64,000 bases of DNA from Flavobacteriales bacterium (GTDB lineage: Bacteria; Bacteroidota; Bacteroidia; Flavobacteriales_D; Sanyastnellaceae), in the NCBI GenBank assembly GCA_036747335.1, contig DAIOCL010000001.1:11537-75536 (forward strand), in the 5' to 3' direction. Under the pieces are notes generated by a model that was not told the origin of the DNA, made no database searches, and saw only the letters and a program-made list of their open reading frames with translations. Positions 39,656-60,169 of the stretch are shown one piece after another (the first letter of the stretch is position 1; each line of letters begins with the position of its first letter). Both the position numbers and the translations under genes were made by a program.

Positions 39656-39719
39656 GTACGTGAGTTTTGATTATAGCCGGCTGAAATATGCCCGTGCGTA
39701 TGAGCGCGTGCAACGGTCA

Positions 39720-42125: not shown

Positions 42126-42144
42126 GCGGTTTGATTGATCTTGT

Positions 42145-42597
42145 TTATGTTTTTTTTACCTGCCGGCCAAAGATGTCGTCTTGCTCCATGATGCGGTTAA
42201 TCTTTTGTATCACCTGAAAAAACTGGTCGAGCTGTGCGGCCGGAATGCGGCTTGCGAGGTATTCATTGAACCGTATGACCTTTTCTCTTGCCCTTTCGCG
42301 CATGGATCTCCCCTTTCGCGTCAGTTTGACCAGAACCACGCGGCGGTCACCTTCCCGGGCTACACGCACGATAAGTCCGTTTTGTTCCATGGATTTGAGA
42401 ATACGGGTGAGTCCGGTGGGTTCCATACCCATCTTCGGACCCAGTTTGGTGGCCGGAGTTCCTTCTTTGTCGATGCTCAGGAGTACATAGGCAATGGCCA
42501 TGGTGGAGTCATAATGGGCAGCCTCGGCATTATAGAGTTTGGAAATTTTGGCCCATGCCCATCGTATGTGGAAATCAACGGTCTCTTCGGGCTTCAT
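42145..42597 (-). CDS. MarR family transcriptional regulator
   Basis: 150 aa with a winged-HTH core (GTPATKLGPKMGMEPTGLTRILKSMEQNGLIVR...DRRVVLVKLT). First gene of the beta-oxidation operon. Confidence 0.85.
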   Translation of the reverse strand: MKPEETVDFHIRWAWAKISKLYNAEAAHYDSTMAIAYVLLSIDKEGTPATKLGPKMGMEPTGLTRILKSMEQNGLIVRVAREGDRRVVLVKLTRKGRSMRERAREKVIRFNEYLASRIPAAQLDQFFQVIQKINRIMEQDDIFGRQVKKT

Positions 42598-42696
42598 GCG
42601 GTGACGATTCAGTGGCTCCTAAAGTACAACCGGGTCACGGGTGCCCGCAAACAAATTGGCAAAGGTTGAAAGCAGCTGAAGACAACCCCATGAGCA

Positions 42697-43347
42697 TCAG
42701 GCCAGCAAGCCGTCTTGCATCACCAACTTCCTGTCTGCCAATGCAGCGAGTTCTTCGTTGTGCGTGACAATAACAAAGGTCTGCCCGAAAGTGTCGCGCA
42801 GGTTGAAAAACAACTGATGCAGTTCGCGGGCCCTGGCGGAATCAAGATTGCCGGAGGGCTCGTCGGCGAGAATGACATCGGGGTTGTTCATCAGCGCCCG
42901 GGCCACCGAAACGCGCTGCTGTTCGCCGCCGCTGAGCTGAGCCGGCTTATGTTCCATCCGGTCTGCCAGTCCTAAGAAACCGAGCAATTCACCGGCGCGC
43001 TTCTCCGCCTCTGACCGGCTTTTGCGCGCAATAAATGCAGGAATGCACACATTTTCCAGCGACGTAAATTCCGGCAGCAGGTTATGGAACTGAATGATGA
43101 AACCAATGTGTTTGTTTCTGAACCTGGCCAGGCCCGAGGCTGACTGGGCGAATACGTCGGTGCCGTCAAATTCGAGGCGGCCGCTATCGGGATAGTCGAG
43201 GGTACCGAGGATGTGCAGCAGGGTGCTTTTGCCGGCACCGCTGGCCCCGACAACCGACACCACTTCACCCCTGCCCACCGCAAGATCAACGCCCCGCACC
43301 ACCTGCAGGCTGCCATACGCTTTCTTGATTCCCGTAGCCTTGATCAT
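42697..43347 (-). CDS. ABC transporter ATP-binding protein (LolD/FtsE-like)
   Basis: Walker [10 protein letters not shown], signature LSGGEQQRV, Walker B ILADEP. 216 aa. Confidence 0.9.
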
Positions 43348-43429
43348 TTCTGATACTTCACTGATTGCCCTGCAAATAACGCACAGGGTGTCAAAAAAAA
43401 CACCATGCCATTTGCACCCCGGGTAATTC

Positions 43430-43437
43430 TATCTTCG
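43430..43437 (+). promoter_or_regulatory. putative -7 promoter box TATCTTCG upstream of sucC
   Basis: One mismatch to TAnnTTTG, 19 nt upstream of the ATG at 43456. Confidence 0.3.
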
Positions 43438-43455
43438 CGCGACATTTTTATCGCT

Positions 43456-44667
43456 ATGAATATTCACGAATACCAAGGCAAATCCATCCTCGCATCCTTC
43501 GGGGTGCCCATTCAGCGTGGCGTTGTAGCCGCCACTCCGGAAGCAGCGCTGGAAGGGGCGCGGCAATTGCAGGCAGAAACAGGAACCGGCTGGTTTGTTT
43601 TGAAAGCCCAGATCCATGCAGGGGGACGTGGAAAAGGAACCATTACCGAAACCGGCTCCCGCGGTGTTGTGCTGGCCAAATCGCTGGATGAAGTGCCCCT
43701 GAAGGCCCGTGATATTCTGGGCGGACACCTGGTGACCCTGCAGACCAAGGCTTCGGGGAAAAAAGTCAACAAGATCTATATCGCTGAAGACGTATATGGG
43801 CCGGGTGCTTCAGCACCCAAGGAATTCTATATGTCGGTACTGCTCGACCGCGCCATCAGCCGCGTGGTAGTGGTGTACTCTCCCGACGGCGGGATGAACA
43901 TTGAGGAGGTAGCGCACAACACACCCGAACGCATTTTCAGGGAAACCATTGATCCGCTGACCGGGCTCACGGATTTTCAGGCGAGAAAAATTGCCTTCAA
44001 CCTCGGTCTGGGAGGAACGGCTTTCAAGAACATGATCGGCTTCGTGAAAAAACTCTACAAAGCCTATGTTTCCATCGATGCTTCCCTGTTTGAGATCAAT
44101 CCCGTGCTGAAAACATCCGACGACCGGGTGATCGCGGTGGACGCCAAGGTAAGTCTCGACGGCAACGGTCTCGACCGCCATCCCGATTATGCGGCCATGC
44201 GCGATACGTCGGAAGAGGATCCCATTGAAGTGGAAGCTTCCAATGCCGAACTGAACTACGTAAAACTCGAAGGCAACGTAGGTTGTATGGTGAACGGTGC
44301 AGGGCTGGCCATGGCTACCATGGACATCATTAAACTCAGTGGCGGAGAACCAGCCAACTTTTTGGATGTGGGAGGAACGGCAGATGCGAAAAGGGTGGAA
44401 ACCGCATTCAGGATAATCCTGCGCGACACAGCGGTGAAGGCCATTCTCGTCAACATTTTCGGTGGAATCGTGCGCTGCGACCGTGTGGCACAGGGTATAG
44501 TGGATGCCTACCGGAATATCGGAGAAATACCCGTGCCCATCATCGTACGTCTGCAGGGAACCAATGCGCGTGAAGCCAAGGAATTGCTCGATGCTTCGGG
44601 ACTCAAAGTACATAGCGTGATTACCCTGCAGGAAGCGGCAGACAAGGTGAGCGCCGTGCTCAAATAA
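43456..44667 (+). CDS. sucC: succinate--CoA ligase (ADP-forming) beta subunit
   Basis: I chose the internal ATG. Starts MNIHEYQGKSILASFGVP. Also has KAQIHAGGRGKG and GCMVNGAGLAMATMD motifs. Confidence 0.95.
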   Translation: MNIHEYQGKSILASFGVPIQRGVVAATPEAALEGARQLQAETGTGWFVLKAQIHAGGRGKGTITETGSRGVVLAKSLDEVPLKARDILGGHLVTLQTKASGKKVNKIYIAEDVYGPGASAPKEFYMSVLLDRAISRVVVVYSPDGGMNIEEVAHNTPERIFRETIDPLTGLTDFQARKIAFNLGLGGTAFKNMIGFVKKLYKAYVSIDASLFEINPVLKTSDDRVIAVDAKVSLDGNGLDRHPDYAAMRDTSEEDPIEVEASNAELNYVKLEGNVGCMVNGAGLAMATMDIIKLSGGEPANFLDVGGTADAKRVETAFRIILRDTAVKAILVNIFGGIVRCDRVAQGIVDAYRNIGEIPVPIIVRLQGTNAREAKELLDASGLKVHSVITLQEAADKVSAVLK

Positions 44668-44680
44668 TGACATTCCGGGA

Positions 44681-45244
44681 ATGCGGATTCTGGTAGTAGA
44701 CAACTACGACAGTTTTACCTATAACCTCGTGCATGCGCTGACCTGTCACGCAGGTGTCGATGTGGTTGTCGAACGAAACGATGCGGTTCGCTTAGACCTG
44801 GTTTCCGGATATGACGGTATTGTGCTGTCGCCGGGACCTGGTATACCGGAAGAATCGGGTCAGTGTCTCGGTATCATTCATCAGTTTGCGGAAACCAAAA
44901 AAATACTGGGCGTATGTCTCGGCCATCAGGCCATTGCGGTGGCAATGGGAGGCCAGCTGAAAAATCTTGCATCGGTCAAACACGGCATTGCCACCACCGC
45001 ACATCAGACGAGGCACGATGTGCTGTTTGAAGGAATTGAAGACGCCTTTCAGATCGGGCATTATCACAGTTGGGTGGTGGCGGAACCACTGCCCACCTGC
45101 CTTGAGGTGCTTTCCATCGATGACGATGGCGAGGTGATGGCCATGAGGCACACTGAATTCAATCTCTGCGGTGTTCAGTTTCATCCCGAAAGTATCCTGA
45201 CGCCTGCAGGTGCCACCTTGCTGGGCAACTGGCTGAGGAGGTAA
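44681..45244 (+). CDS. class I glutamine amidotransferase, anthranilate/aminodeoxychorismate synthase component II
   Basis: Starts MRILVVDNYDSFTYNL. Has the GVCLGHQ nucleophile elbow and FHPES. Confidence 0.9.
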   Translation: MRILVVDNYDSFTYNLVHALTCHAGVDVVVERNDAVRLDLVSGYDGIVLSPGPGIPEESGQCLGIIHQFAETKKILGVCLGHQAIAVAMGGQLKNLASVKHGIATTAHQTRHDVLFEGIEDAFQIGHYHSWVVAEPLPTCLEVLSIDDDGEVMAMRHTEFNLCGVQFHPESILTPAGATLLGNWLRR

Positions 45245-45361
45245 TGCCTGGTGGACACTTTTAGCCGTGATGCTGATGTGGTTATGACGAGGGCAAGGCT
45301 TCCTGAGTCCCTGGCTGGTTAACATCAACCCGTATGGCTTTTCGCGAACACAAACCCGTTA

Positions 45362-46081
45362 CTACCTATTCAACCATTTTTTAAAACGTCCGATCCGGTC
45401 AATCGACACCAGAATAACATCATTGTTATCCGGCTCTGGTTTAATATGAACCCTTAATCTTGATTGAGAAATCTGGTTTATTTTCACAATTGATGATATC
45501 GAAATCAAATAGTTGCGGTTTATTCTCAGAAAATCGTTGGGATTCAGTTCTTCTTCCAAAGCGACTAACGTATCTTCCAGTAAATATCTTTTTCCATTGA
45601 AACCTACTGCCATCGTGTATTTGTTTTCATAAACAAAATAACTAATGTCTTTGGTAAAGACAATGGCATAGGATGTACCTAACTTAATTAGAAATTTTTC
45701 CTTATGCCCTTTTGGCAGATTACTTTCGTTGAACTGGGTGTACTTGATCAGACTTTTTTCCAGCTTTTCCCGGGTGATTGGTTTGATAAGATAATCAATC
45801 GTATTTAGCGCAAATGAATTTATTGCATATTCCGAATAAGCTGTTGTGATGATAATTTTTGACTTGATTAGTTTATCTTCAAAATAAGACAAGCTGTTCA
45901 CCTCATGCATGTTAACGTCCAGGAAAATGAGATCCGGCTCATTGTATTTAAGATATTCCAAAGCCTCATGGATGGTCGCTATAGTCTTCTCCACTTTGAC
46001 ATTATAATCTAAGGAGCTAATAATCATTTTGAGTTGATCTGAAACCAACTGTTCGTCTTCAATAATGATGGCCCGTATCAT
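45362..46081 (-). CDS. LytTR-family response regulator (REC + LytTR DNA-binding domain)
   Basis: REC motifs (IIEDE, DLIFLDVNM). C-terminal LytTR motifs (FLRINRNYLISI). Its start overlaps the kinase stop by 1 nt. Confidence 0.9.
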   Translation of the reverse strand: MIRAIIIEDEQLVSDQLKMIISSLDYNVKVEKTIATIHEALEYLKYNEPDLIFLDVNMHEVNSLSYFEDKLIKSKIIITTAYSEYAINSFALNTIDYLIKPITREKLEKSLIKYTQFNESNLPKGHKEKFLIKLGTSYAIVFTKDISYFVYENKYTMAVGFNGKRYLLEDTLVALEEELNPNDFLRINRNYLISISSIVKINQISQSRLRVHIKPEPDNNDVILVSIDRIGRFKKWLNR

Positions 46082-47151
46082 CAGTAAACCGTGATTAAGT
46101 GAATTTTTACACTAAACAAATTATTTTCAATTTTGTATTCCGGCTCTGGATATTCCAATAGCTCAAATTGTTTCGCCAGGTTCTCTTTTCCCGTGCCTCC
46201 ATTGCTTTTTGCTTTATTTATGACAGGGTTAAAAGAGTTTGAAACTGTAATAATGTCATTTTCTCGACTGATACTTATAACTAAGGGACTATCAACACTA
46301 AACATATTGTGTTTTACTGCATTTTCAATTAACGAAAGCAGCGTTAACGGGGGCAAATAGTAGTCGGTTGTCTGCATGTCACCAATCACATTTACTTTTA
46401 TGGCATCGGGATATCTCATCATCATCAATTGCACATAAGAATCTGAATTGGCATATTCCTCTTGAAGGGTAATAACGAGCTCGTCATCTTTATGTATAGA
46501 AGAACGGTAAATATTTGCCAGGTGAATAACGAATTTCTCGGCTTTTTCCGGCGATTTTTGAATCAACCCAAGAAGAGATGAAAATGAATTAAAAAGGAAA
46601 TGAGGACTAAGTTGCTTCTTCAGCGTGATTTGATGAAACTTATTTCGTTCATATTCAATATCTGATATGGTACTTCTTAATCTTTGTTCCGTGATTACTT
46701 TTACAAGAAGATTTTCAATCAGAAAAATTGTTCCAAAGGTGGTAGTGACGATTAATAAGTACAGAAAAAAATTAGCGTTTAAGAAAGCCTCATTATCTTC
46801 ATCATTCATCAGAAAGAACCATATTGACCTTACCGAGAGCGAAATCAAAACTGAAACCAGCAGAAATCCAAGAATAATGGTAGTTTTCAGATTCGTGATT
46901 CTGGGTTTAAAGTATGAGTTCATCATCTCAGAAGCACTAATAATCCATCTATGGCACAAGAGGAGAATCAATAAGCCTATACTCGTTGTTGGAATAAACA
47001 CCAACGCGTCTGCTATTGCCTCTTGGATGCTCGTGTCATTAACAAGATCAATAATAAAATTATAGACCACCAGAAGTAATAAAAGCGCACTATAAATAAG
47101 CCATCTTGTCTTCCTTACTTCATTGAATAAGTATCGTTTTTTCTGATACAT
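46081..47151 (-). CDS. LytS-type sensor histidine kinase (multi-TM input, His_kinase + HATPase_c)
   Basis: About 5-6 TM segments with short loops. LSPHFLFNSFSSL is the phospho-acceptor region of the LytS/YehU type. NAVKHN is the N-box. Confidence 0.85.
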   Translation of the reverse strand: MYQKKRYLFNEVRKTRWLIYSALLLLLVVYNFIIDLVNDTSIQEAIADALVFIPTTSIGLLILLLCHRWIISASEMMNSYFKPRITNLKTTIILGFLLVSVLISLSVRSIWFFLMNDEDNEAFLNANFFLYLLIVTTTFGTIFLIENLLVKVITEQRLRSTISDIEYERNKFHQITLKKQLSPHFLFNSFSSLLGLIQKSPEKAEKFVIHLANIYRSSIHKDDELVITLQEEYANSDSYVQLMMMRYPDAIKVNVIGDMQTTDYYLPPLTLLSLIENAVKHNMFSVDSPLVISISRENDIITVSNSFNPVINKAKSNGGTGKENLAKQFELLEYPEPEYKIENNLFSVKIHLITVY

Positions 47152-47998
47152 AGCTGGTGTAAAAGTATCCTACCGGATACAAAGATGGGGTTGTCTCATT
47201 GATTACATTACTTCGTATTGGTGCAGGAGGAGGATTTCCAACTACACTCAAGCCCTGATTACCCGTTTGGGTGAATATGTTGTAAAGATAGTCATAGTGT
47301 CCTTTCGAAATTCCGAGCATTTGCACCGTAACTTCATCTCCCAGCTCAAGCCTGATTTCTTCGTTTGGGTTGACGCCAATGCTTGTTTGACCGTCAAAGA
47401 ACTTGTCTGAAAGTAAGAGGTTTCGATTATTACCTCTGTCGGGGATTATGAAAGGAATACCGTTTACCAATGTTTTGAAGTAATAGTAATTTTCTATCCC
47501 GGCCGGGTCCGTTAGATCCAGTCTTGCAAAATAACCTTCCTCGGTGATACCTGTGGCCTGTTCATATGCAAAATACAGTGTGTCAATTTCTGGTGAAGGC
47601 ATAATGACACTGGAAGCACTAAACGTGTTTCCTTCCCAATCAATATTGAGCGTATAAGCAGCGTTGAGGGAAAGCTCAATTTCGTTTGACTCATACCACC
47701 CATCCTGCGTATGGGTAAAGGGGTAGGATACTCCATTGCTTTCAACAAAAACCTCAGCATCCGTAACGATCGGAATTGCGTCCTGAGACAAGTACGGCAG
47801 CGTGGTTGTTAGTTTAATCTTTTGAGGTTGGTCTGGTCTGGACGGGTTTAATTCCAGGCCACCATCAATGACCAATCTGCGAATTGTGCCACTTTCATTT
47901 AAATTTTCCGTTACCACTTTCTCACATGAGATAGCTGTAGCAGCAACTACCAATAGGCACCCGATGCTTATTTTATTAAAATGAAATTTCATTGCCAT
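47120..47998 (-). CDS. DUF4249 family lipoprotein
   Basis: Lipobox VAATAISC. The size and position immediately after a TonB-dependent receptor gene are characteristic of DUF4249. Confidence 0.7.
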   Translation of the reverse strand: MAMKFHFNKISIGCLLVVAATAISCEKVVTENLNESGTIRRLVIDGGLELNPSRPDQPQKIKLTTTLPYLSQDAIPIVTDAEVFVESNGVSYPFTHTQDGWYESNEIELSLNAAYTLNIDWEGNTFSASSVIMPSPEIDTLYFAYEQATGITEEGYFARLDLTDPAGIENYYYFKTLVNGIPFIIPDRGNNRNLLLSDKFFDGQTSIGVNPNEEIRLELGDEVTVQMLGISKGHYDYLYNIFTQTGNQGLSVVGNPPPAPIRSNVINETTPSLYPVGYFYTSYVSEKTILIQ

Positions 47999-50382
47999 TA
48001 GAATTTAAAATTATATGTTACTGAAGGTATAATAGGGAAATATGCGATTTGAACCGCTTCTGTGGTACCCGTCGCGAGTTCAACACCATTTATCTCACTA
48101 ATTTCTCTGAAGAAAATTGATGCCGCATTGAGACGGTTGTAGACATTAATGATACTAAAAACCCACTGTCCTTTGATCCGTGCATCTTCTTTCGGATTAA
48201 GCGTAGCCGAGATATCCAATCTGTGATAGTCCGGCAGCCTGCCCGAGTTGCGACTGCTAAAATCAGCCACTATAAGTCCATTGCTCTGGTATTTGCCGGA
48301 AGGATATGTAACCGGTCTGCCAGACCCATAAATGAAGTTAGCACTCAGCTCCAATCTTTTGTTAAGTTTATAGAAGCCGATAAGATTCAGTTGATGGCGC
48401 TGGTCACTATTCGTGCTATACCATTCATTGTTGTTAATTCCGGTAACTTTAGCTTCCGACCTGGACAATGTATAGCTTATCCAGCCTGTAAATTTCCCTT
48501 CGGTTTTGCTTATTTGAAGCTCTACTCCATAAGATCGGCCATTGCCCTTAGCGATTTGCGACTCGATGTTCTCATTGAACAATAAATCCGCTCCATCAAT
48601 AAAATCAGTAATATTGTTTAAGCTTTTGTAATATGTTTCTGATGATATTTCAAATTTACCATTTTTAGTATTTTTGAAATAGCCAAGTGCAAATTGATCA
48701 GCATTTTGCGGATCTATGTATGGACCTGATGGAGTCCAAACATCTAAGGGGGTTGGTGATGTTGTGTTAGAAATAAGGTGGATATATTGATACATCTTGT
48801 TATATCCAAATTTTACTGATTCCAATTCAGACAACTTGTATCTTACATTAAGTCTTGGCTCTAGCCCATTATCTGTGGAGATCAATTCTCCGCGTCTGTA
48901 CTGCCGTTCACCAAGAATGGTGTTTTGGCTATATGTATTAAACACCTCATTATAGGTAAGCGGAGTTGCACTTGCGTATTCTCTTATTCTTTCTCCTCCC
49001 AATCTAAAGAAATTAGAAGCGCGCAGTCCATATTGGATGGAAAGTTTACTTGTTAGCTTTTGCTCATTGTCCACATAAAATGCCACCTCACTCGCATAAT
49101 TCTGCTGGAAGGTCTGTGCTTTTATTGGTGATTCCAGCAGCGGACTAATCTGCCCCGGTCGGAAATTATAGTACAGAGCATCTGCGCCGAACCGTATTGT
49201 GGTTTTGTCATTTAAGTAATAGGTTGCGCGTGGTCTAAGATTATAATTAATGATGTTGGATTTCCAGGAGAACTCATACCCCGAGCGTAAGTTGTCAAGA
49301 TTATAATCGTACTGGCTTCCAATAAGCGAAGTTTGTATGAACCATTTTTCCCCACCGGTTCTTGTCCATCTAATTGTTCCAGATGAATTGCCCCATTGAG
49401 CTCCAACCAGACCTGGTAGTTTAAAGTTATCCCTGCCAAAATACCCACTCACGTAGAGGCGATTTTTTGAATTGATAGCGTAATTGGTTTTTAAGTTCAG
49501 GTCATAAAAAAACAGTTTATTATTTCTAAACTCCTCTGACAAATTAGTAAAAAGGTCTACGTACGATCTCCTCCCGGCAACGATAAACGATCCTTTTGCT
49601 TCTTCTTCTTTAGCTCTTCCTATAGGACCCTCTATTAAAGCCCTGCTTGAAATAAGTCCTATACCCATTTCCCTGACGAATTTCTTTGAGTTACCTTCCC
49701 TTTGCCTCACGTCAAGCACTGAAGATAAACGGCCGCCGTATGTGGCAGGTACCCCTCCTTTATACAGCTTCGCTTCCTTGATTACATCAGCATTAAAGAC
49801 TGAAAAAAGTCCAAACAAATGGGTTGCATTGAATATAGTTGCTTCATCAAGGAGTATGAGGTTTTGGTCTGCGCCTCCACCACGAACATTAAAGCCTGAG
49901 GAGGCTTCACTAGTTGTCGAAACACCAGGAAGTAGTTGGATGGCCCTTAAGACGTCTGCCTCCCCAAGAACTGCGGGTAACTGTTTTATCACCTGTGCGT
50001 TCAGTGTTTTAACGCCCATCTCAGTGCTTTGAATCAGTTCATTTTTTGCCACTGAGCTGACTACTACTTCTGATAAAGTTTTGGAAGAGGAATCAAGAGA
50101 TATGTTTAAAACCGTATTCGCTTTTAAATCAAGTTCTATTCGTTTCGTTTCCATACCAATATACCTCACTTCAAGCGTATACACTCCCGCAGTCAGATCA
50201 AAAGAATAAAAGCCATATTCATTTGAAATTGCAACGCCCGCTCCGTTGACAACGAGTGTGGCTCCAATTAGGGTCTCGCCACTTGATTTTTCACTCACTT
50301 CACCAGAAACGGTAAATTTTGATTGTCCTTTAGCCATGCCAACGATTGTTAGCATCATGCAGCAAATAATTAGGTACTTCAT
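47998..50382 (-). CDS. TonB-dependent receptor with an N-terminal carboxypeptidase-regulatory-like domain
   Basis: I chose the start at MKYLIICCMM (signal peptide). FTVSGEV...GATLVV matches the CarboxypepD_reg-like fold. Has a plug region (LPGVSTTSEASSGFNVRGGGADQNLILLDEA) and a terminal NFKF. Confidence 0.9.
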   Translation of the reverse strand: MKYLIICCMMLTIVGMAKGQSKFTVSGEVSEKSSGETLIGATLVVNGAGVAISNEYGFYSFDLTAGVYTLEVRYIGMETKRIELDLKANTVLNISLDSSSKTLSEVVVSSVAKNELIQSTEMGVKTLNAQVIKQLPAVLGEADVLRAIQLLPGVSTTSEASSGFNVRGGGADQNLILLDEATIFNATHLFGLFSVFNADVIKEAKLYKGGVPATYGGRLSSVLDVRQREGNSKKFVREMGIGLISSRALIEGPIGRAKEEEAKGSFIVAGRRSYVDLFTNLSEEFRNNKLFFYDLNLKTNYAINSKNRLYVSGYFGRDNFKLPGLVGAQWGNSSGTIRWTRTGGEKWFIQTSLIGSQYDYNLDNLRSGYEFSWKSNIINYNLRPRATYYLNDKTTIRFGADALYYNFRPGQISPLLESPIKAQTFQQNYASEVAFYVDNEQKLTSKLSIQYGLRASNFFRLGGERIREYASATPLTYNEVFNTYSQNTILGERQYRRGELISTDNGLEPRLNVRYKLSELESVKFGYNKMYQYIHLISNTTSPTPLDVWTPSGPYIDPQNADQFALGYFKNTKNGKFEISSETYYKSLNNITDFIDGADLLFNENIESQIAKGNGRSYGVELQISKTEGKFTGWISYTLSRSEAKVTGINNNEWYSTNSDQRHQLNLIGFYKLNKRLELSANFIYGSGRPVTYPSGKYQSNGLIVADFSSRNSGRLPDYHRLDISATLNPKEDARIKGQWVFSIINVYNRLNAASIFFREISEINGVELATGTTEAVQIAYFPIIPSVTYNFKF

Positions 50383-50767
50383 TAACTTTAATTTTCCGCT
50401 AAGCACCCGCTACTTTGGGTATTTCATACTTATTTATTGGCTGAATGACGTAAACCCACCGTTGAATGGCGTATTTTGACATTAAATGAATATTGCAACA
50501 TGAAATTGAGCTACCTCGTTTATAATTAGACCATTAACCTGTAGCGCCAGCCTGTTTCTCACACCCAAAAAATGTCATTAGCCTGGATGGCGTGCGTGTT
50601 TTCTCCTTGCAGCCTCCATCTATTTGAAGGCGCAAAAAAGTTGCTTATCAGAGAACAGAAACCAAGATGAACGCCACGCCTGCTGCAAAGCTCTATGGCA
50701 GCATGAAACCGTTTACGGGGAAACGCAAGCCAAAAAATCGATGTGGTTTTTGAACTAAGAACTCCGC

Positions 50768-51412
50768 TTATCCAACTACCCTGGCACACATCAGTCCGTC
50801 GCGCAAAGGAAGCAGAACGGGCTGTATCCGGGGATCCTTTCGGATTTCATCATTGAATGCCTGGAGGGCCCTGGTTTCCGCATCACCGGTGGCAGCCGGT
50901 GTCACCACCTTTCCGCTCCAGAGCACATTGTCGGCCAGAATCAGCCCTCCGGGAGCCATCATCGGCAATACCTGGTAGTAATAATGCAGGTAGTTTTCTT
51001 TGTCGGCATCTATGAACACGAGGTCAATGGGTCCGGAAAGGGTGGGTATGATATCGCGTGCATTTCCAACATGACGCTCCACCTTGTCAACGATGCCCGC
51101 CATTGCAAAGTATTTGTCCTGAATCCACTTCAGTTCATCGTTGATGTCGATGGTAATTAACCTGCCGCCGGCTTGCAATCCCTCGCAGAGGCAGATGGCC
51201 GAATATCCGGTATATGTGCCAATTTCGAGGATTACCGATGGCCGGGTTAGGTGCGACAACAAACTGAGCATACGGCCCTGGATGTGTCCGCTAAGCATGC
51301 GGGGCATCAGCACTTTTTGCCAGGTTTCGCGGGTAAGGGCTTTCAACACCTCCGGTTCGGGCTGGGTATGTTCGGTTGCGTAGTTTTCAATCGCCTCCGG
51401 GAGAAAGTTCAT
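50768..51412 (-). CDS. class I SAM-dependent O-methyltransferase (caffeoyl-CoA O-methyltransferase-like)
   Basis: I chose the internal ATG (MNFLPEAIENY). VILEIGTYTGYS is the SAM motif. Also has LVFIDADKENY. Confidence 0.85.
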   Translation of the reverse strand: MNFLPEAIENYATEHTQPEPEVLKALTRETWQKVLMPRMLSGHIQGRMLSLLSHLTRPSVILEIGTYTGYSAICLCEGLQAGGRLITIDINDELKWIQDKYFAMAGIVDKVERHVGNARDIIPTLSGPIDLVFIDADKENYLHYYYQVLPMMAPGGLILADNVLWSGKVVTPAATGDAETRALQAFNDEIRKDPRIQPVLLPLRDGLMCARVVG

Positions 51413-51551
51413 GTCGGTTCTTTTTGCAAAGATGTGCCAGGCCCCGGAGAGACACGACCCCCTTTTCCTGCCAATATGCTCATCGGGGATTCGCGCATTC
51501 AGGCCTAATTTCGCCCCGATGAATTTTCTGTAGTTATCTGAGGCCCTTCGC

Positions 51552-52799
51552 ATGTGGCTTGCGCACTGGATTGCCGAAGAGTGGGTGTCTTTTGGCACCT
51601 TCATCACCGGCTTCGGGGTGCTGGCAGCCCTGTGTTTCACTATCTGGTTTTTTACACGGGTAGTCATCATCCGTGTGATCAGGCGTATCGTCACTCGGAC
51701 GGAAACCCGCTGGGATGACAAACTTTTTGAATACAAGGTTTTCCGGCAACTTGCCATGATTGTTATCGCCATCGTGATTACGCATGCCGTGCCGGTGCTG
51801 TTCAGGCATTATCCCGACTGGCTCGTGTTTTCTCTTCCGCTGGCGCAGGTCTATGTGGTGGTGGCCATCTTGCGGGCCCTTCACGCCGTGCTGAACGCCA
51901 TCAGCGACCTGCTTGAAACGACACCCAGCCTTTCCGACAAGCCTATAAGAAGCTACAAACAGGTAGCCAAGATTATTTTTCTGCTGATCGGACTGGTGTT
52001 CATTCTGAGCATCCTGCTGCGTCAGTCACCCCTTTACATTCTCACCGGGTTCGGTGCCGTAACGGCCATATTGCTGCTCATTTTTAAGGATGCCATCCTC
52101 GGCTTTACGGCGAGTATACAAATGAGTGCCATTGACCTGGTAAGAATCGGAGACTGGATTACCGTGGAGAAGTTTGGGGCAGACGGAGAGGTCATCGAAA
52201 TCAACCTTACCACCGTAAAGGTCAGAAACTGGGACATGACCGTAACCCTTGTGCCATCCTATGCGCTGGTGAGTGAAAGTTTCAGGAACTGGCGCGGCAT
52301 GCAGGAGAGCGAAGGACGACGCATCAAACGGTTTATGTACATCAAAATCTCCAGCATCAAATACTGCGATGAGGACCTGTACAACCGGCTGCTCAAGGTT
52401 GAGCGCATACGCGACTACCTGCTGGAACGTCACCGAGAGATCGAGACTTTCAACACCACAGGTGGTATCGATAAATCTGTGCTGATCAACGGCAGGCACA
52501 TGACCAATATCGGCATCTTCCGCCAGTATGCAGAGGCCTATCTGAGGCAAAATCCGAAAATCAACAGCGACATGACCTACATGGTGCGCCATCTTCAGGC
52601 TACGCACCACGGCCTCCCGATAGAGGTCTATGCTTTTTCCCGGGAGAAAGAACTGGAACGATTTGAAGAAGTCGCAGCCGATATATTCGATCACCTGTTT
52701 GCCGCCATAGCCTACTTTGACCTGGAAGTTTTTGAAAGTCCGTCAGGCGGAGAGCGCAAGATGGCCGAAGAAAATTCCGGACCCGTAATCGAAGAATGA
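51552..52799 (+). CDS. mechanosensitive ion channel (MscS family) protein
   Basis: N-terminal TM helices and the MscS beta-domain region (IGDWITVEKFGADGEVIEINLTTVKVRNWD). Confidence 0.85.
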   Translation: MWLAHWIAEEWVSFGTFITGFGVLAALCFTIWFFTRVVIIRVIRRIVTRTETRWDDKLFEYKVFRQLAMIVIAIVITHAVPVLFRHYPDWLVFSLPLAQVYVVVAILRALHAVLNAISDLLETTPSLSDKPIRSYKQVAKIIFLLIGLVFILSILLRQSPLYILTGFGAVTAILLLIFKDAILGFTASIQMSAIDLVRIGDWITVEKFGADGEVIEINLTTVKVRNWDMTVTLVPSYALVSESFRNWRGMQESEGRRIKRFMYIKISSIKYCDEDLYNRLLKVERIRDYLLERHREIETFNTTGGIDKSVLINGRHMTNIGIFRQYAEAYLRQNPKINSDMTYMVRHLQATHHGLPIEVYAFSREKELERFEEVAADIFDHLFAAIAYFDLEVFESPSGGERKMAEENSGPVIEE

Positions 52800-53371
52800 A
52801 CAAGAATGTAGTGTTGCAGCTGGCCCTGCTCACCCTGGTGGGCATGCCGATTATCGCGCTGGTCGTTGACCACTACAGCGAGGATCGGGTCAACCTGGCT
52901 GCATCATTGGCCGGACCCTCCCACCCTTTGCTGCAACTGGTGTACGGACTAACCGGCGGGGCAGCCGCCGCGGCCGTCGCCAGCCTGACCATCTCGATGA
53001 AATTTATGCAAGGCATTAGTTCGCGTTATGTGAACCTGTTTGGTCATTTCAACCTCAACCGAAATGAAATTGTGCTCATCTCACTCTGCGCCGGTGTAGG
53101 CGAAGAACTGCTCTTTCGCGGGGCATTGCAGCCCTTCCTCGGCATCGCGCTGACCTCATTCATTTTCGTGGGCATGCACGGCTACTACAGCATTCGGTCT
53201 TGGCAGATAACGGTGTACGGCGCTGTGATGACCCTCATCATTGCAGCCATCGGTTGGATGAGCGTTGCCTTCGGACTCATAAGTGCCATGGTTGCCCACA
53301 CGGTGATCGATGTGGTGCTGCTGCACCGCTTACAGGAGTCAGGCCGCCGCCAGGTGCAGGAGGAAGACTGA
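52796..53371 (+). CDS. CPBP family intramembrane glutamic endopeptidase (CAAX protease-like)
   Basis: ATGA overlap with the mscS-like stop. Has the EELLFRG motif and a downstream H...H motif (AHTVID). Confidence 0.8.
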   Translation: MNKNVVLQLALLTLVGMPIIALVVDHYSEDRVNLAASLAGPSHPLLQLVYGLTGGAAAAAVASLTISMKFMQGISSRYVNLFGHFNLNRNEIVLISLCAGVGEELLFRGALQPFLGIALTSFIFVGMHGYYSIRSWQITVYGAVMTLIIAAIGWMSVAFGLISAMVAHTVIDVVLLHRLQESGRRQVQEED

Positions 53372-53433
53372 TTGATACAGGTATTCCGGGGCGGTTAACC
53401 CAGGCGTGGAAGCAAGGCTTTTGGTATTCTCGC

Positions 53434-53441
53434 TATTTTTG
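53434..53441 (+). promoter_or_regulatory. putative Bacteroidota -7 promoter box TATTTTTG
   Basis: Perfect TAnnTTTG match, 19 nt upstream of the ATG at 53461. Confidence 0.4.
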
Positions 53442-53460
53442 AACGATTATTCGCAAGGCT

Positions 53461-53799
53461 ATGAGTGCAAAACCGAAATCAGGCTCCGGCGGCTTCGTCT
53501 ATTCCACCAATCCTGACTTTTTCCGGGAGGAGGAGGCTGCGGCAGGCTCCGGTAGCGGGCCCCAGGAGCTCCGCGTCTGGCTGGAAAAAAATCACCGCGG
53601 CGGCAAGACGGTTACGGTCGTGCGGGGCTTCTCCGGCAGCGATGCCGAATTGGAAGACCTGGGCCGCACACTCAGACAAAAATGTGGATCGGGTGGCAGC
53701 GTGAAAGACGGAGAAATTCTCATCCAGGGCGATCACCGCCAGAAAGTCATTCAATGGCTCACCCAGCTGAAGCACCGTGTAAAAAGTGCAGGAAGCTGA
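53461..53799 (+). CDS. SUI1/eIF1-family translation initiation factor (YciH-like)
   Basis: Contains RGGKTVTVVRGF...LRQKCGSGGSVKDGEILIQGDHR. Confidence 0.85.
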   Translation: MSAKPKSGSGGFVYSTNPDFFREEEAAAGSGSGPQELRVWLEKNHRGGKTVTVVRGFSGSDAELEDLGRTLRQKCGSGGSVKDGEILIQGDHRQKVIQWLTQLKHRVKSAGS

Positions 53800-55007
53800 T
53801 GACCAATACCCCTGCCCCGGGCGATGAGCGGTTTGCCATTGCCATCAAAACATTTCAGGCATTCGAACCGCTGGTTGCCGCTGAATTGCGCCGACTGGGC
53901 TTCACCGATCCCGCCGAAGATACCCGCCTTGTAACGGTGTCAGGCACACTTGAAGACGTGTACCGACTTAATTACATGATGCGCACTGCGCTGCGTATTC
54001 TTATTCCTGTCAGAAAATTCATCGTGCATTCGCCTGATGACCTCTACCGTAAAATCAAAAAAACAGACTGGACACCCTGGCTGAGTGCAGACAGCACCTT
54101 TGCGATAGACCCGCACATCAGCAGCGGACTCTTCAGACATCCGCACTTCGCATCCCTTCGTATGAAGGATGCCATCGCTGACCAGTTCACCGAACGTGTA
54201 AACCGACGGCCCGATGTAGACCCTGGGTCACCCGATGTGCGCTTCGACCTGCATATTGACGCGGGAAACAGGGTTACCGTTTCGCTCGACAGCAGTGGCA
54301 CCTCGCTTAACCAGCGTGGATACAGGGTTTCCGGCGGAGAGGCACCCCTCAATGAAGTGCTGGCGGCCGGACTCCTGGAGCGTGCGGGCTATACCGGTCG
54401 GGAAACGCTCTATGTGCCCATGTGCGGCAGCGGAACACTGGCCATCGAAGCAGCGATGATGACCACCGGTGCACCGGCCAGGCTGCTCAACCCTCAGTTT
54501 GGGTTTATGAAATGGAAGGATTTCAATCCGGACCTGTGGAAGCAGGTGAAGGCCCGCTGCGACAGCAGCATGCATGCGGCGTATGCACCCATCATGGCTT
54601 CTGACCTGAAGGCTGCTGCTGCCGATGAATGCCGGCGCAACCTCGTCAGGGCCGGAATGAGCGATCATGTGGCCGTGCGTACGGAAGACTTTTTCGACCT
54701 GAAACCCACCGGTGAATCGGGCATGGTGATACTCAATCCGCCTTACGGAGAGCGAATGCCGTTGGCCGAGATCCAATCATTCTACCGCCGCATCGGTGAC
54801 CAGCTCAAGCGCCATTGGGCCGGCCATACCGCCTGGCTGATCTCGTCCAACCTGGAAGCACTCAAACATATCGGACTCAAACCTTCCGCAAAGTTCAAGC
54901 TGCTCAACGGCAGCCTGCCTTGTCTCTACCAGCAGTTCGAACTCTTCAGGGGTGACCGAAAGTCGCGGCTTCAGGCTTCGGGGTCCGAAGCGGACAGCAC
55001 GCCGTGA
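53799..55007 (+). CDS. THUMP-domain class I SAM-dependent RNA methyltransferase (RlmL/K N-terminal-like)
   Basis: I chose the internal ATG, which overlaps the SUI1 stop by 1 nt. Has the MCGSGTLAIEA SAM motif and the NPPYGER catalytic motif. Confidence 0.85.
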   Translation: MTNTPAPGDERFAIAIKTFQAFEPLVAAELRRLGFTDPAEDTRLVTVSGTLEDVYRLNYMMRTALRILIPVRKFIVHSPDDLYRKIKKTDWTPWLSADSTFAIDPHISSGLFRHPHFASLRMKDAIADQFTERVNRRPDVDPGSPDVRFDLHIDAGNRVTVSLDSSGTSLNQRGYRVSGGEAPLNEVLAAGLLERAGYTGRETLYVPMCGSGTLAIEAAMMTTGAPARLLNPQFGFMKWKDFNPDLWKQVKARCDSSMHAAYAPIMASDLKAAAADECRRNLVRAGMSDHVAVRTEDFFDLKPTGESGMVILNPPYGERMPLAEIQSFYRRIGDQLKRHWAGHTAWLISSNLEALKHIGLKPSAKFKLLNGSLPCLYQQFELFRGDRKSRLQASGSEADSTP

Positions 55008-55039
55008 GGTAAATTCACGGCCTCAACCATTGATACCGC

Positions 55040-55807: not shown

Positions 55808-55818
55808 AAAAAGCCTTT

Positions 55819-57543: not shown

Positions 57544-57581
57544 CGAACTCCTGCGGCGGGTAGAAAGGTCGCGAAGAAGAA

Positions 57582-59045: not shown

Positions 59046-59047
59046 GG

Positions 59048-60142: not shown

Positions 60143-60169
60143 TGCGTTTCTTTGGCACAAAGTAAATCG

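What the first reader, a model, noticed from the sequence alone, without database searches (positions are those of the whole stretch)
45345..50545. AT-rich 5-kb island: coupled TonB-dependent receptor / DUF4249 lipoprotein / LytS-type kinase / LytTR regulator operon
Seen in sequence: between the GC-rich amidotransferase gene (ends 45244) and the GC-rich O-methyltransferase gene (ends 50768), the composition switches abruptly to AT-rich with A/T-ending codons. This is a visual estimate and has not been computed. The four same-strand genes are chained by 1-nt TGATG overlaps at 47998 and 46081 and by a 32-nt overlap at 47120-47151, so they form one translationally coupled operon. The receptor has a signal peptide, a carboxypeptidase-regulatory-like domain, a plug and a C-terminal NFKF. 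The DUF4249 protein has a lipobox (AISC). The kinase input is about 5-6 TM helices with no sizeable periplasmic loop. The regulator is REC+LytTR. Inference: this looks like an outer-membrane gate hard-wired to an intramembrane-sensing two-component system. That would be a trans-envelope signalling or uptake module different from the SusC/SusD-hybrid two-component and FecA/FecR/ECF-sigma paradigms. Its lipoprotein partner (DUF4249) has no assigned function. The block appears foreign, yet I found no integrase, transposase, tRNA or convincing flanking repeat, so how it arrived is unexplained.
Basis: partly seen in the sequence, partly recalled or inferred. Interest (0 to 1): 0.7.

Follow-up and report, generated by a model that had tools for sequence, protein, structure and literature searches.

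The report
Imported self-regulating outer-membrane uptake cassette
A 5.2-kb stretch of foreign, AT-rich DNA in an uncultured Flavobacteriales genome carries a complete four-gene import unit (outer-membrane transporter, surface "lid" lipoprotein, membrane sensor kinase, DNA-binding regulator, plus its own regulator-binding site). The same unit recurs across many Bacteroidota; it is a tidy new combination of known part types, not a new kind of system.

Summary
Window 45,340-50,540 has 38.9% GC against 55.0% for the rest (z = -12.8) and a deviant tetranucleotide signature. It holds four tightly packed minus-strand genes: a TonB-dependent transporter (TBDT), a DUF4249 lipoprotein, a PF06580 histidine kinase and a REC-LytTR regulator.

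The block is an insertion. A related species (86-89% nt identity in the flanks) has the amidotransferase and O-methyltransferase genes adjacent with full synteny. A more distant relative also lacks the block.

The four-gene order is conserved in 38 of 39 evaluable species-level loci (Flavobacteriaceae, Saprospiraceae, Chitinophagales), in unrelated genomic contexts.

A tandem direct repeat with a 20-21 bp period lies about 100-140 bp upstream of the TBDT gene in most loci. This is the classic LytTR site layout, so the regulator probably autoactivates the operon.

Parts of this are already known or ordinary. The TBDT-DUF4249 "lid" pairing was published by Price et al. in 2023. TBDT genes with a neighbouring two-component system are also known (PfeS/PfeR-PfeA). 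Nothing supports a physical "hard-wired" trans-envelope link: there is no STN domain, and the kinase has four transmembrane helices with 11-13-residue loops.

Substrate and transfer vehicle remain unknown.

Verdict: a real, recently acquired, portable sense-and-import cassette, and a new variant of a known kind.

The parts
45340..50540 (.). AT-rich inserted segment: promoter plus four genes, and nothing else.
   Evidence: GC is 0.389 against 0.550 for the rest (z = -12.8) and the tetranucleotide signature deviates. Edges come from 60-bp GC windows. The empty-site comparison bounds the insertion within 45244-50757. Homology to the Flavobacteriales MAG cassette runs from about 50495 to 45364.
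47998..50382 (-). TonB-dependent transporter, non-SusC type, 794 aa from ATG 50382. It has a signal peptide, a periplasmic carboxypeptidase-regulatory-like N-terminal domain, a TonB-box-like SEVVVSS, a plug, a barrel, and a C-terminal ...YNFKF.
   Evidence: Pfam gives CarbopepD_reg_2 at 8.7e-14 and Plug at 1.9e-8. There is no STN hit and no barrel-model hit. NCBIfam gives no hit, so it is not TIGR04056 SusC. The start is conserved with L014/L005. It is 90% identical to the L014 orthologue and 54-71% identical to the others.
47120..47998 (-). DUF4249 lipoprotein (292 aa), the putative surface lid of the transporter.
   Evidence: PF14054 scores E = 2.1e-25. Cys25 of the lipobox is invariant in 17 homologues. 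The AF2 model (pLDDT 81, pTM 0.75) shows two beta-sandwich domains, and the PDB search gives only generic Ig/FnIII hits. The lid role is proposed in 10.1101/2023.03.17.533168.
46081..47151 (-). Membrane histidine kinase (356 aa). It has four TM helices (about 19-37, 49-71, 92-110, 127-150) with short loops, His184 in LSPHFLFNS, an N-box LIENAVKHN, and a G-box GTGKENL.
   Evidence: PF06580 scores 9.5e-19, with no 5TMR_LYT, GAF or HATPase_c Pfam hit. The AF2 model has pLDDT 78, and its cytoplasmic part best matches the GanS kinase domain (6swk, TMt 0.60), then DesK, AgrC and BceS. The core is invariant across 39-42 homologues, while the TM region is poorly conserved apart from E146.
45362..46081 (-). 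Response regulator, REC + LytTR (239 aa). The acidic pocket E8/D9, Asp55, Thr80 and Lys100 are all present.
   Evidence: Pfam gives Response_reg at 4.1e-14 and LytTR at 2.1e-15. The best NCBIfam matches are BtsR and LytR, both below the equivalog cut-offs. The 1-nt TGATG overlap with the kinase is shown. A kinase-regulator overlap of 1-8 nt occurs in all 38 other loci (4 nt in 32 of them).
50463..50473 (-). Distal half-site TACGCCATTCA of the putative LytTR binding site.
   Evidence: It forms a direct repeat with the proximal half-site at a 21-bp period, matching 10 of 11 positions. It is conserved in L014/L005.
50442..50452 (-). Proximal half-site TACGTCATTCA, ending 59 nt upstream of ATG 50382.
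   Evidence: Same evidence as the distal half-site. A positionally equivalent repeat (consensus AGGTTTATCA, 20-bp period) occurs in about 30 of the 43 orthologous loci with upstream DNA; 27 match the strict paired-core pattern, and others carry variant cores. It is followed about 35 nt later by TAnnTTTG.
45245..45361 (.). Spacer with host-like GC between the amidotransferase stop and the regulator stop. This is the left junction.
   Evidence: It cannot be aligned to the 149-bp spacer of the empty site. It is only 88.9% identical between conspecific strains, against 99.2% overall.
50541..50767 (.). Spacer with host-like GC between the island and the O-methyltransferase gene. This is the right junction.
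   Evidence: GC returns to about 0.5 at 50540. It has no homology to the empty-site spacer or to the donor-like contigs.
44681..45244 (+). Host class-I glutamine amidotransferase. This is the left flank.
   Evidence: Pfam GATase scores 5.3e-48. In the empty-site contigs L140-L142 it lies directly next to the O-methyltransferase gene.
50768..51412 (-). Host O-methyltransferase (214 aa). This is the right flank.
   Evidence: PF01596 scores 7.5e-46. The gene is called at 214 aa in L002 and L140.

Best explanation
This is a horizontally acquired, self-contained 'sense-and-import' cassette. It was inserted between the host's amidotransferase and O-methyltransferase genes in an uncultured, roughly 55%-GC Flavobacteriales lineage. 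The source was a low-GC Bacteroidota donor. The nearest known copy, in a freshwater Flavobacteriales MAG, is 75% identical at the nucleotide level.

The cassette encodes a non-SusC TonB-dependent transporter and its DUF4249 surface lipoprotein lid, which together capture and import an unknown cargo. It also encodes a dedicated two-component system: a 4-TM PF06580 kinase and a REC-LytTR regulator.

The proposed mechanism is as follows. The phosphorylated regulator binds the tandem direct repeat 60-90 bp upstream of the transporter gene and activates the whole operon, giving positive autoregulation. The kinase is switched on by the cargo, or a product of it, once the transporter has brought it to the periplasm or inner membrane. 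The transporter is therefore made in quantity only when its cargo is available.

Shown here: foreign origin, empty site, conserved four-gene linkage, intact catalytic residues, purifying selection in the new host, and a conserved repeat at a fixed promoter position.

Inferred: that the regulator binds that repeat, that binding activates rather than represses, and what the kinase senses.
For: Foreign origin:
- GC and tetranucleotide break.
- Empty site with full synteny in L140-L142, with flanks 85.6-89.4% nt identical.
- The outgroup L143-L145 also lacks the block.
- In other lineages the cassette has the GC of its host.
- Homology to the nearest cassette (L014/L005: 75% nt; TBDR 90%, DUF4249 82%, kinase 69%, regulator 84% aa) covers exactly the promoter-to-stop interval.

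Functional in the new host:
- Between 99.2%-identical strains the four genes differ at 35 synonymous and 7 non-synonymous codons.
- Island divergence equals flank divergence.

Linkage:
- TBDR-DUF4249-kinase-regulator occur in the same order and strand, with gaps mostly between -38 and +30 nt, in 38 of 39 evaluable GTDB species loci.
- Five unrelated genomic contexts were inspected gene by gene.

Autoregulation:
- An unbiased search found a 10-nt direct repeat at 20-21 bp spacing, 104-126 nt upstream of the TBDR start. It matches at >=8/10 positions in 41% of loci, against 4.5% of control windows and 2.3% of shuffles.
- A PWM scan of 845 kb found 33 pairs at 20-bp spacing, against 0-4 at other spacings, and 25 of them are at this promoter.
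- In Flavobacteriaceae the repeat lies about 35 nt upstream of a TAnnTTTG box.
- LytTR regulators are known to bind 9-bp direct repeats separated by 11-13 bp just upstream of promoters, and to autoactivate (PMC6193735; AgrA, PMC4227749).

Kinase competence:
- H, N and G boxes are invariant.
- The model matches the GanS, DesK and AgrC kinase cores.

Precedents:
- Lid role: 10.1101/2023.03.17.533168.
- The same regulatory logic: PfeS senses ferri-enterobactin only after PfeA/PirA import and induces pfeA (PMC8001512).
Against: - There is no expression or binding data.
- The cargo is unknown, and neighbouring genes give no consistent hint.
- The kinase's membrane domain is the fastest-evolving part of the cassette: 69% identity against 90% for the TBDR versus L014, and about 30% elsewhere. 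Only E146 is invariant. That is odd for a site binding one conserved ligand.
- The half-site in the window and L014 (CGYCATTCA) differs from the majority motif (GGTTYATCA).
- I could not identify a Bacteroidota -7/-33 promoter downstream of the repeat in the window.
- The PWM test is partly circular, because the matrix was trained on the promoter sites.
- The regulators sit at the 3' end of the operon they would activate, so basal expression has to be assumed.
- One locus (L048, 38% identity) and the 25%-identity pairs have no adjacent two-component system. The transporter-lid pair therefore does not need this regulator in principle.
Confidence: 0.6

Rival explanations
1. The two-component system does not sense the cargo. 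It responds to a general cue such as membrane state, envelope stress, starvation or growth phase, and simply gates expression of the transporter and lid.
For: The sensor consists only of four TM helices with 11-13-residue outward loops and has no recognisable ligand-binding domain. Its sequence is poorly conserved. Structural neighbours include the membrane-state sensor DesK and the intramembrane-sensing BceS. Paralogous ~350-aa PF06580/LytTR pairs occur in many unrelated contexts in Bacteroidota.
Against: A general-stress regulator would not need to stay physically fused to one transporter-lid pair across orders and through horizontal transfer. The repeat is essentially confined to this promoter in the 845 kb scanned.
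Confidence: 0.22
2. This is the first reader's idea: direct trans-envelope signalling. Cargo binding at the TBDT is passed physically, via its N-terminal periplasmic domain or via TonB, to the kinase without the cargo reaching it. This would be analogous to FecA-FecR.
For: Genetic linkage is strict. The TBDT carries a periplasmic N-terminal domain ahead of the TonB box. Intramembrane-sensing kinases such as BceS are known to read out a partner transporter (structural neighbour 8g3a).
Against: There is no STN domain. The carboxypeptidase-regulatory-like N-terminal domain is present in related TBDRs that have no linked kinase (L057-L059; other TBDR types). The kinase exposes only about 11 and 13 residues to the periplasm. 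No inner-membrane adaptor is encoded in the cassette. Complex modelling could not be run with the tools available.
Confidence: 0.07
3. The cassette imports a signalling molecule rather than a nutrient, such as a peptide, bacteriocin-like compound or other exogenous cue. It would then act as a cell-cell or interspecies sensing device, as many LytTR systems do (Agr, Com, Blp).
For: The LytTR family is strongly associated with peptide quorum sensing and positive autoregulation (PMC6193735). No catabolic or inner-membrane transport genes travel with the cassette. In three Aquimarina loci a second repeat faces a divergent operon, which suggests a small regulon beyond the transporter.
Against: No peptide precursor or exporter gene is linked. 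TBDT-lid pairs with known roles are nutrient importers. The second target operon is seen in only three closely related loci.
Confidence: 0.08
4. The block is not foreign. It is an ancestral AT-rich region that was deleted in the compared relatives.
For: Junctions cannot be resolved to the nucleotide, and no mobility gene, tRNA or target duplication is present.
Against: GC3 is 0.36-0.41 against 0.57-0.70 in flanking genes. The tetranucleotide signature is as close to the low-GC MAG's background as that MAG's own cassette is. Both the sister species and the outgroup lack the block. The cassette's nearest relatives are in low-GC genomes, in other contexts.
Confidence: 0.03

Closest known systems
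BT2172/BT2173 of Bacteroides thetaiotaomicron: a non-SusC TBDT with a DUF4249 'lid' lipoprotein (Price, Deutschbauer & Arkin 2023, bioRxiv 10.1101/2023.03.17.533168; PMC11003636).
   Same: The same two families are adjacent on the same strand. The lipoprotein has a lipobox. The TBDT subfamily is almost always next to a DUF4249 gene.
   Different: The window's DUF4249 protein is a distant relative within the family. Those papers do not mention a linked kinase or LytTR regulator. Here one subclade has a two-component system and a cis-site fixed to the pair.
PfeS/PfeR-PfeA (and PirS/PirR-PirA) of Pseudomonas aeruginosa.
   Same: A TBDT gene sits next to a dedicated two-component system. The sensor responds to cargo only after TBDT-mediated import and induces the TBDT gene (PMC8001512). 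This is the logic proposed here.
   Different: That system uses an OmpR-type regulator and a kinase with a periplasmic sensor domain. Its cargo is a siderophore and it has no lid lipoprotein. The present system has a LytTR regulator, a 4-TM kinase without a periplasmic domain, and an unknown cargo.
SusC/SusD polysaccharide utilisation loci with hybrid two-component sensors (HTCS).
   Same: A Bacteroidota TBDT plus surface lipoprotein lid, with a linked inner-membrane sensor that induces the locus.
   Different: The TBDT is not a SusC-family member (no TIGR04056 hit). There is no SusD, no CAZymes, and no beta-propeller/Y_Y_Y periplasmic sensor. The kinase and regulator are separate proteins of the PF06580/LytTR type.
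FecA/FecR/FecI TonB-dependent transducers.
   Same: An outer-membrane TBDT is genetically coupled to a transcription-control system.
   Different: The defining STN signalling domain is absent. There is no anti-sigma/ECF sigma pair. No evidence exists for signalling without import.
LytS/LytR and BtsS/BtsR (YehU/YehT), AgrC/AgrA, and LytTR regulatory systems.
   Same: A PF06580 kinase core and a REC-LytTR regulator. Direct-repeat operator with a 20-21 bp period. Positive autoregulation is typical.
   Different: The kinase lacks the 5TMR-LYT and GAF input domains of LytS/BtsS. The regulator scores far below the BtsR and LytR equivalog cut-offs. The target is an outer-membrane transporter operon.
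BceS-BceAB and other intramembrane-sensing kinases.
   Same: A kinase with minimal extracytoplasmic loops encoded next to a transporter. It is a structural neighbour in the fold search (8g3a).
   Different: The partner here is an outer-membrane TBDT, not an inner-membrane ABC transporter. No physical coupling has been shown.

Membership tests
TonB-dependent transporter | Plug domain. | tested here: met
   PF07715 scores 1.9e-8, above the gathering score.
TonB-dependent transporter | 22-strand beta-barrel with a C-terminal aromatic residue. | tested here: inconclusive
   No Pfam barrel model hits. About 570 residues follow the plug, the protein ends in ...YNFKF, and it is 54-90% identical to proteins annotated as TonB-dependent receptors. 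No structure was predicted.
TonB-dependent transporter | TonB box between the N-terminal extension and the plug. | tested here: inconclusive
   A candidate, LSEVVVSSV, is read directly from the sequence. There is no formal model for this feature.
SusC/RagA family and PUL | Match to TIGR04056, with an adjacent SusD-family gene and CAZymes. | tested here: not met
   NCBIfam gives no hit at E <= 0.01. The neighbour is DUF4249, not SusD, and there are no CAZymes.
TonB-dependent transducer (FecA type) | N-terminal STN signalling domain, with an adjacent anti-sigma/ECF sigma pair. | tested here: not met
   There is no STN hit even at E <= 10. The neighbours are a kinase and a LytTR regulator.
DUF4249 (PF14054) TBDT-lid lipoproteins | Pfam match above the gathering score. 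| tested here: met
   90.3 bits against a cut-off of 28.5.
DUF4249 (PF14054) TBDT-lid lipoproteins | Lipoprotein signal with an invariant Cys. | tested here: met
   Cys25 is invariant in 17 homologues.
DUF4249 (PF14054) TBDT-lid lipoproteins | Encoded immediately downstream of its TBDT. | tested here: met
   Every locus with upstream DNA has the TBDR directly upstream.
DUF4249 (PF14054) TBDT-lid lipoproteins | [quoted passage not shown] | not testable with these tools
   Complex modelling is not available. The export signal after Cys (EKVVTENLNE) is ambiguous.
LytS/YehU(BtsS)-type histidine kinase | PF06580 phospho-acceptor region with a conserved His. | tested here: met
   PF06580 scores 9.5e-19. 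His184 in PHFLFNS is invariant.
LytS/YehU(BtsS)-type histidine kinase | ATP-binding (Bergerat) domain. | tested here: met
   There is no Pfam HATPase_c hit. However, the N and G boxes are invariant, and the model matches the GanS, DesK and AgrC catalytic cores.
LytS/YehU(BtsS)-type histidine kinase | 5TMR-LYT membrane input domain and GAF domain. | tested here: not met
   Neither domain is detected at E <= 10. The kinase has four TM helices and is only 356 aa long.
LytTR response regulator | REC domain with a phospho-acceptor Asp, plus a LytTR DNA-binding domain. | tested here: met
   Both Pfam domains score above their cut-offs. Asp55, Thr80 and Lys100 are read from the sequence.
LytTR response regulator | Operator made of two direct repeats about 9-10 bp long with a 20-22 bp period upstream of the target promoter. 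| tested here: met
   The repeat lies at 50442-50473 and at the equivalent position in about 30 of the 43 orthologous loci with upstream DNA. Binding itself was not tested.
Horizontally acquired genomic island | Compositional deviation, plus absence from the same site in relatives. | tested here: met
Horizontally acquired genomic island | Mobility signatures: integrase or transposase, tRNA target, flanking direct repeats. | tested here: not met
   No tRNA, no flanking repeat, only four genes, and no phage or close plasmid copy.

The most novel reading that the evidence does not exclude
A kinase with essentially no periplasmic surface, permanently fused to an outer-membrane transporter-lid pair, acts as a readout of transporter activity. 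It would either detect a lipophilic cargo as it partitions into the inner membrane, or read the TonB/ExbBD-TBDT transport cycle itself (flux sensing). The cassette would then be a portable trans-envelope sensor that works in any Bacteroidota host it enters. It would also be the first LytTR-controlled TBDT family described in the phylum.
Probability: 0.15. Interest if true: 0.65.

Novelty: new variant of a known kind. Interest (0 to 1): 0.4.

Why it matters
DUF4249-type TBDTs are widespread in aquatic and gut Bacteroidota, and none has a known cargo. A dedicated regulator with a defined operator gives a practical way in. A reporter on the repeat-bearing promoter could be used to screen for inducers and so identify the cargo of this family.

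The finding also adds a PF06580/LytTR two-component system to the short list of regulators known or predicted for Bacteroidota outer-membrane uptake loci (HTCS, ECF/anti-sigma, SusR, AraC/GntR types, and the recently reported BguR one-component system).

Finally, it shows a clean case of a complete import-plus-sensing-plus-operator unit moving between lineages that differ by 16-18 GC points without any visible mobility machinery.

Tried and rejected
- An exact-protein look-up of the window's DUF4249 protein found nothing. Homologue search worked instead.
- The 17-sequence alignment was too diverse for the genome scan, so a 13-sequence alignment was used.
- A metagenome scan with the amidotransferase returned only <=58%-identical relatives with no conserved synteny. 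The empty site was found instead through 90%-identity cluster members.
- The junction spacers could not be aligned to the empty-site spacer, so no exact breakpoint or target duplication could be defined.
- No remnants of the trp genes that occupy this interval in the outgroup were found in the window.
- Flanking repeats, tRNAs, sigma-70 promoter and terminator scans (no better than shuffles, and the wrong promoter model for Bacteroidota), and Rfam were all uninformative.
- A sequence search of the PDB with the DUF4249 protein found nothing. The fold search gave only generic tandem beta-sandwich matches, so it offered no clue to the ligand.
- Phage records have no homologue. Plasmids have only 25%-identical DUF4249 pairs without LytTR, so no transfer vehicle was identified.
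- The reverse census from the kinase side was uninformative. Beyond the 70% orthologues, hits form a cloud of ~350-aa PF06580 kinases at 25-40% identity. The three contexts sampled were all different, so the kinase family is generic and only one branch is tied to this transporter.
- Literature searches for the four-gene combination found no prior description, but the searchable library is limited to open-access papers.

Full report

Yes. A sliding GC profile drops from 0.52-0.59 to 0.34-0.44 between about 45,250 and 50,600. The stated interval has GC 0.389, against 0.550 for the rest of the window, and no other 1-kb bin is below 0.49. Against 481 host windows of the same length the island lies 12.8 SD below the mean. 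Its strand-symmetric tetranucleotide deviation from the host is 0.256, whereas host windows give 0.127 +/- 0.014 with a maximum of 0.153. Third-position GC is 0.36-0.41 in the four island genes and 0.57-0.70 in five flanking genes. Sixty-base windows place the edges at about 45,320-45,360 and about 50,540.

The four minus-strand ORFs and their domains are as described:
- TBDR with CarbopepD_reg_2 + Plug.
- DUF4249 with E = 2e-25 and an invariant lipobox cysteine.
- A PF06580 kinase.
- A REC + LytTR regulator.

Small corrections:
- The junction at 47998 reads TAATG, not TGATG. The junction at 46081 is TGATG.
- The 32-nt DUF4249/kinase overlap is real and is conserved in four other lineages.
- The kinase has four, not 5-6, hydrophobic helices.
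- The transporter most likely starts at ATG 50382, because the sequence MKYLIICC and the 17 nt before it are conserved with the nearest relatives.

**2. Is it foreign?**

Yes, and this can be shown directly. Cluster look-ups showed that the host flanking proteins, but not the island proteins, have >=90%-identical members on a 245-kb ENA scaffold. On that scaffold and two further contigs (L140-L142, GC 0.55) the amidotransferase gene is followed after 149 bp by the O-methyltransferase gene. Gene order is identical for about 10 kb on each side.

At the nucleotide level, L140 5026-10563 matches window 39706-45243 at 89.4%, and L140 10704-20563 matches window 50758-60600 at 85.6%. So 5.5 kb in the window replaces 140 bp. 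A more distant relative (succinyl-CoA ligase beta subunit 85% identical) carries a trp operon in this interval and also has no cassette. Two Logan contigs that are 99.2% identical to the window carry the island at the same site. The insertion therefore post-dates the split from the L140 lineage and pre-dates the divergence of these strains.

Between those strains the four island genes differ at 35 synonymous and 7 non-synonymous codons, and their divergence (0.6-1.1%) is like that of the flanks. The genes are therefore being maintained in the new host.

The host is an uncultured Flavobacteriales lineage: its best named matches to the succinyl-CoA ligase beta subunit are 'MAG: Flavobacteriales bacterium' at 81-85%.

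How the block arrived remains unresolved. There is no tRNA, no flanking repeat and no mobility gene. The spacers on both sides have host-like GC but cannot be aligned with the empty-site spacer. No phage or close plasmid copy exists in the collections searched.

**3. Where did it come from?**

The closest cassette is on a Lake Mendota Flavobacteriales MAG contig (L014, GC 0.37) and on a 570-kb ENA contig (L005). Amino-acid identities are TBDR 90%, DUF4249 82%, kinase 69% and regulator 84%. Nucleotide homology (75%) runs from the transporter start to the regulator stop. With a finer alignment it continues about 115 nt upstream through a pair of direct repeats, and it stops exactly at the regulator's stop codon.

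The transferred unit is therefore the promoter/operator plus four genes and nothing else. At 75% identity, that MAG is a relative of the donor and not the donor itself. The island's tetranucleotide signature is as close to that contig's background as the contig's own cassette is. In nine other lineages checked, the cassette has the GC of its surroundings.

**4. Is the four-gene set a unit?**

A genome scan with a DUF4249 alignment returned 46 loci from GTDB species representatives. tblastn with the four window proteins and ORF reconstruction give the following:
- In 38 loci the order is transporter, DUF4249, kinase, regulator on one strand. Intergenic distances are mostly between -38 and +30 nt, and the kinase and regulator genes overlap by 1-8 nt in all 38 (by 4 nt in 32 of them). 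These loci come from Aquimarina, Kordia, Maribacter, Tenacibaculum, Croceivirga, Ascidiimonas, uncultured Flavobacteriaceae, Saprospiraceae and Chitinophagales MAGs.
- Three loci end too early to judge, and one is a frameshifted fragment.
- One locus (L048, 38% identity) has the pair but no two-component system within 10 kb.
- Three Salibacter/Cryomorphaceae loci at 25% identity, and two Cytophagales plasmid loci, likewise have only the transporter-DUF4249 pair.

Five contexts inspected gene by gene share nothing beyond the four genes. The linkage is thus specific to one subclade of the TBDT-DUF4249 family. It has been kept while DUF4249 diverged to about 40% identity and the kinase to about 30%.

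From the kinase side the relationship is not exclusive. Roughly 350-aa PF06580 kinases at 25-40% identity are very common in Bacteroidota, and the three contexts sampled were all different.

**5. A conserved operator**

In the window, TACGCCATTCA (50473-50463) and TACGTCATTCA (50452-50442) form a direct repeat with a 21-bp period, ending 59 nt before the start codon. An unbiased search for 10-nt repeats spaced 19-23 bp apart in the 320 nt upstream of each orthologous transporter gene found the best pair at about -113 to -126 in most loci.

At that position 41% of loci have >=8/10 matches, compared with 4.5% of control windows and 2.3% of shuffles. The common half-site is AGGTTTATCA with a strict 20-bp period. 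It occurs in 27 of 44 upstream regions by a simple pattern and in more loci with variant cores. Two loci (L042, L054) carry three tandem copies by that pattern, and three half-sites in a row are also visible in L018 and L047. In Flavobacteriaceae it is followed about 35 nt later by TAnnTTTG, the Bacteroidota -7 element (the consensus is from my own knowledge).

A matrix built from these sites finds 33 pairs at 20-bp spacing in 845 kb on both strands, against 0-4 at other spacings. Twenty-five of the 33 lie at this promoter. This test is partly circular, because the matrix was trained on the promoter sites.

Two 9-10-bp direct repeats separated by 11-13 bp just upstream of the promoter, driving positive autoregulation, is the documented LytTR layout (PMC6193735; AgrA, PMC4227749). 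I therefore infer that the cassette's own regulator binds here and activates the operon.

**6. The proteins**

Transporter. It has a periplasmic carboxypeptidase-regulatory-like N-terminal domain, a TonB-box-like SEVVVSS, a plug, and a C-terminal ...NFKF. It has no STN domain and no match to any NCBIfam model, including SusC.

DUF4249. The model is confident (pLDDT 81) and shows two beta-sandwich domains, with only generic Ig/FnIII neighbours in the PDB.

Kinase. The N-terminus is rich in K/R. Four helices follow, with outward loops of 11 and 13 residues, and then a DHp-like hairpin carrying His184 and an ATP-binding domain. The model's cytoplasmic half matches the GanS kinase domain best (TMt 0.60), then DesK, AgrC and BceS. 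The core is invariant across homologues, whereas the membrane part is poorly conserved apart from Glu146.

Regulator. It has all the REC signature residues.

**7. Mechanism**

The best-supported reading is a cargo-inducible, positively autoregulated import operon. The transporter and lid bring a still unknown cargo across the outer membrane. The 4-TM kinase detects it, or a derivative, at the inner membrane. The LytTR regulator then binds the tandem repeat and raises expression of all four genes.

This is the logic shown experimentally for PfeS/PfeR-PfeA, where ferri-enterobactin must first be imported by the TBDT to activate the sensor (PMC8001512). It is also the logic generally assumed for PUL sensors.

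I give the composite model 0.6. By step:
- Foreign origin: about 0.95.
- The four genes as a functional unit: about 0.9.
- Regulator binding to the repeat: about 0.65.
- Cargo sensing by the kinase: about 0.45.

The main rival (0.22) is that the kinase reads a general membrane or stress cue. This fits its minimal and fast-evolving sensor. A signalling-molecule import role gets 0.08.

**8. Comparison with what is known, and novelty**

The transporter-DUF4249 pairing and its lid interpretation are published (10.1101/2023.03.17.533168; PMC11003636). TBDT genes controlled by an adjacent two-component system are also known. The horizontal-transfer aspect is ordinary.

What I could not find described in the open-access library available to me is threefold: the fixed coupling of a PF06580/LytTR system to this transporter-lid subfamily, its conserved operator, and its movement as a minimal promoter-to-stop cassette. 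I rate it a new variant of a known kind, with interest 0.4.

Its practical value is that the operator and regulator offer a route to identifying the cargo of an orphan TBDT family.

Noticed in passing
L005 14742-14879: This is a 138-bp relic. Seventy-nine nt are 96% identical to that contig's own transporter 5' region. They are joined, through an 8-nt overlap, to 67 nt that are 98.5% identical to its own regulator 3' region. The relic lies 2.1 kb downstream of the intact cassette and is absent from the sister contig L014. It looks like the remains of a second cassette copy with its interior deleted.
   Followed up: partly
window 43405-51412; L143 8001-17212: In a more distant relative the interval between the succinyl-CoA ligase and O-methyltransferase genes holds a full trpE-G-D-C-F-B-A plus DAHP synthase operon. 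The window and L140 keep only a lone amidotransferase, 57% identical to that trpG, and no trp remnants. This interval has changed gene content repeatedly.
   Followed up: partly
window 45245-45361: The 117-bp spacer between the amidotransferase and the island is only 88.9% identical between the window and conspecific contigs L002/L003. Those contigs are otherwise 99.2% identical to the window. This is a local divergence hot spot at the left junction.
   Followed up: no
L039 2472-7400 (also L033, L046): In three Aquimarina loci a second, oppositely oriented pair of half-sites lies about 100 bp upstream of the main one and faces a divergent operon. That operon encodes two small membrane proteins without a Pfam match, a cytochrome-c-like protein, and a 2Fe-2S + molybdopterin aldehyde-oxidase/IorAB-like pair. 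These may be extra regulon members and a weak hint about the chemistry involved.
   Followed up: partly
L149 (Runella pRUNSL04) and L150 (Hymenobacter canadensis plasmid): Distant (25% identical) transporter-DUF4249 pairs on Cytophagales plasmids sit next to RND efflux genes. Their regulators are different (HTH proteins, or a generic (non-LytTR-annotated) response regulator + kinase pair).
   Followed up: no
L147 4048-8699: A paralogous ~350-aa PF06580 kinase + LytTR pair lies downstream of a different TonB-dependent receptor type (OMP_b-brl_3) with no DUF4249. Small LytTR systems may be a recurrent regulator of non-SusC receptors in Bacteroidota.
   Followed up: no
window 50768-51772: The mechanical ORF of 334 aa over-extends the O-methyltransferase gene. 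Relatives call a 214-aa product starting at window 51412.
   Followed up: yes
L056 (Okeania hirsuta assembly contig): A frameshifted DUF4249 fragment, 37-45% identical to the window protein, sits on a contig of a cyanobacterial assembly in gene-poor sequence. It is probably contamination from an associated Bacteroidota organism, or a decayed remnant.
   Followed up: no
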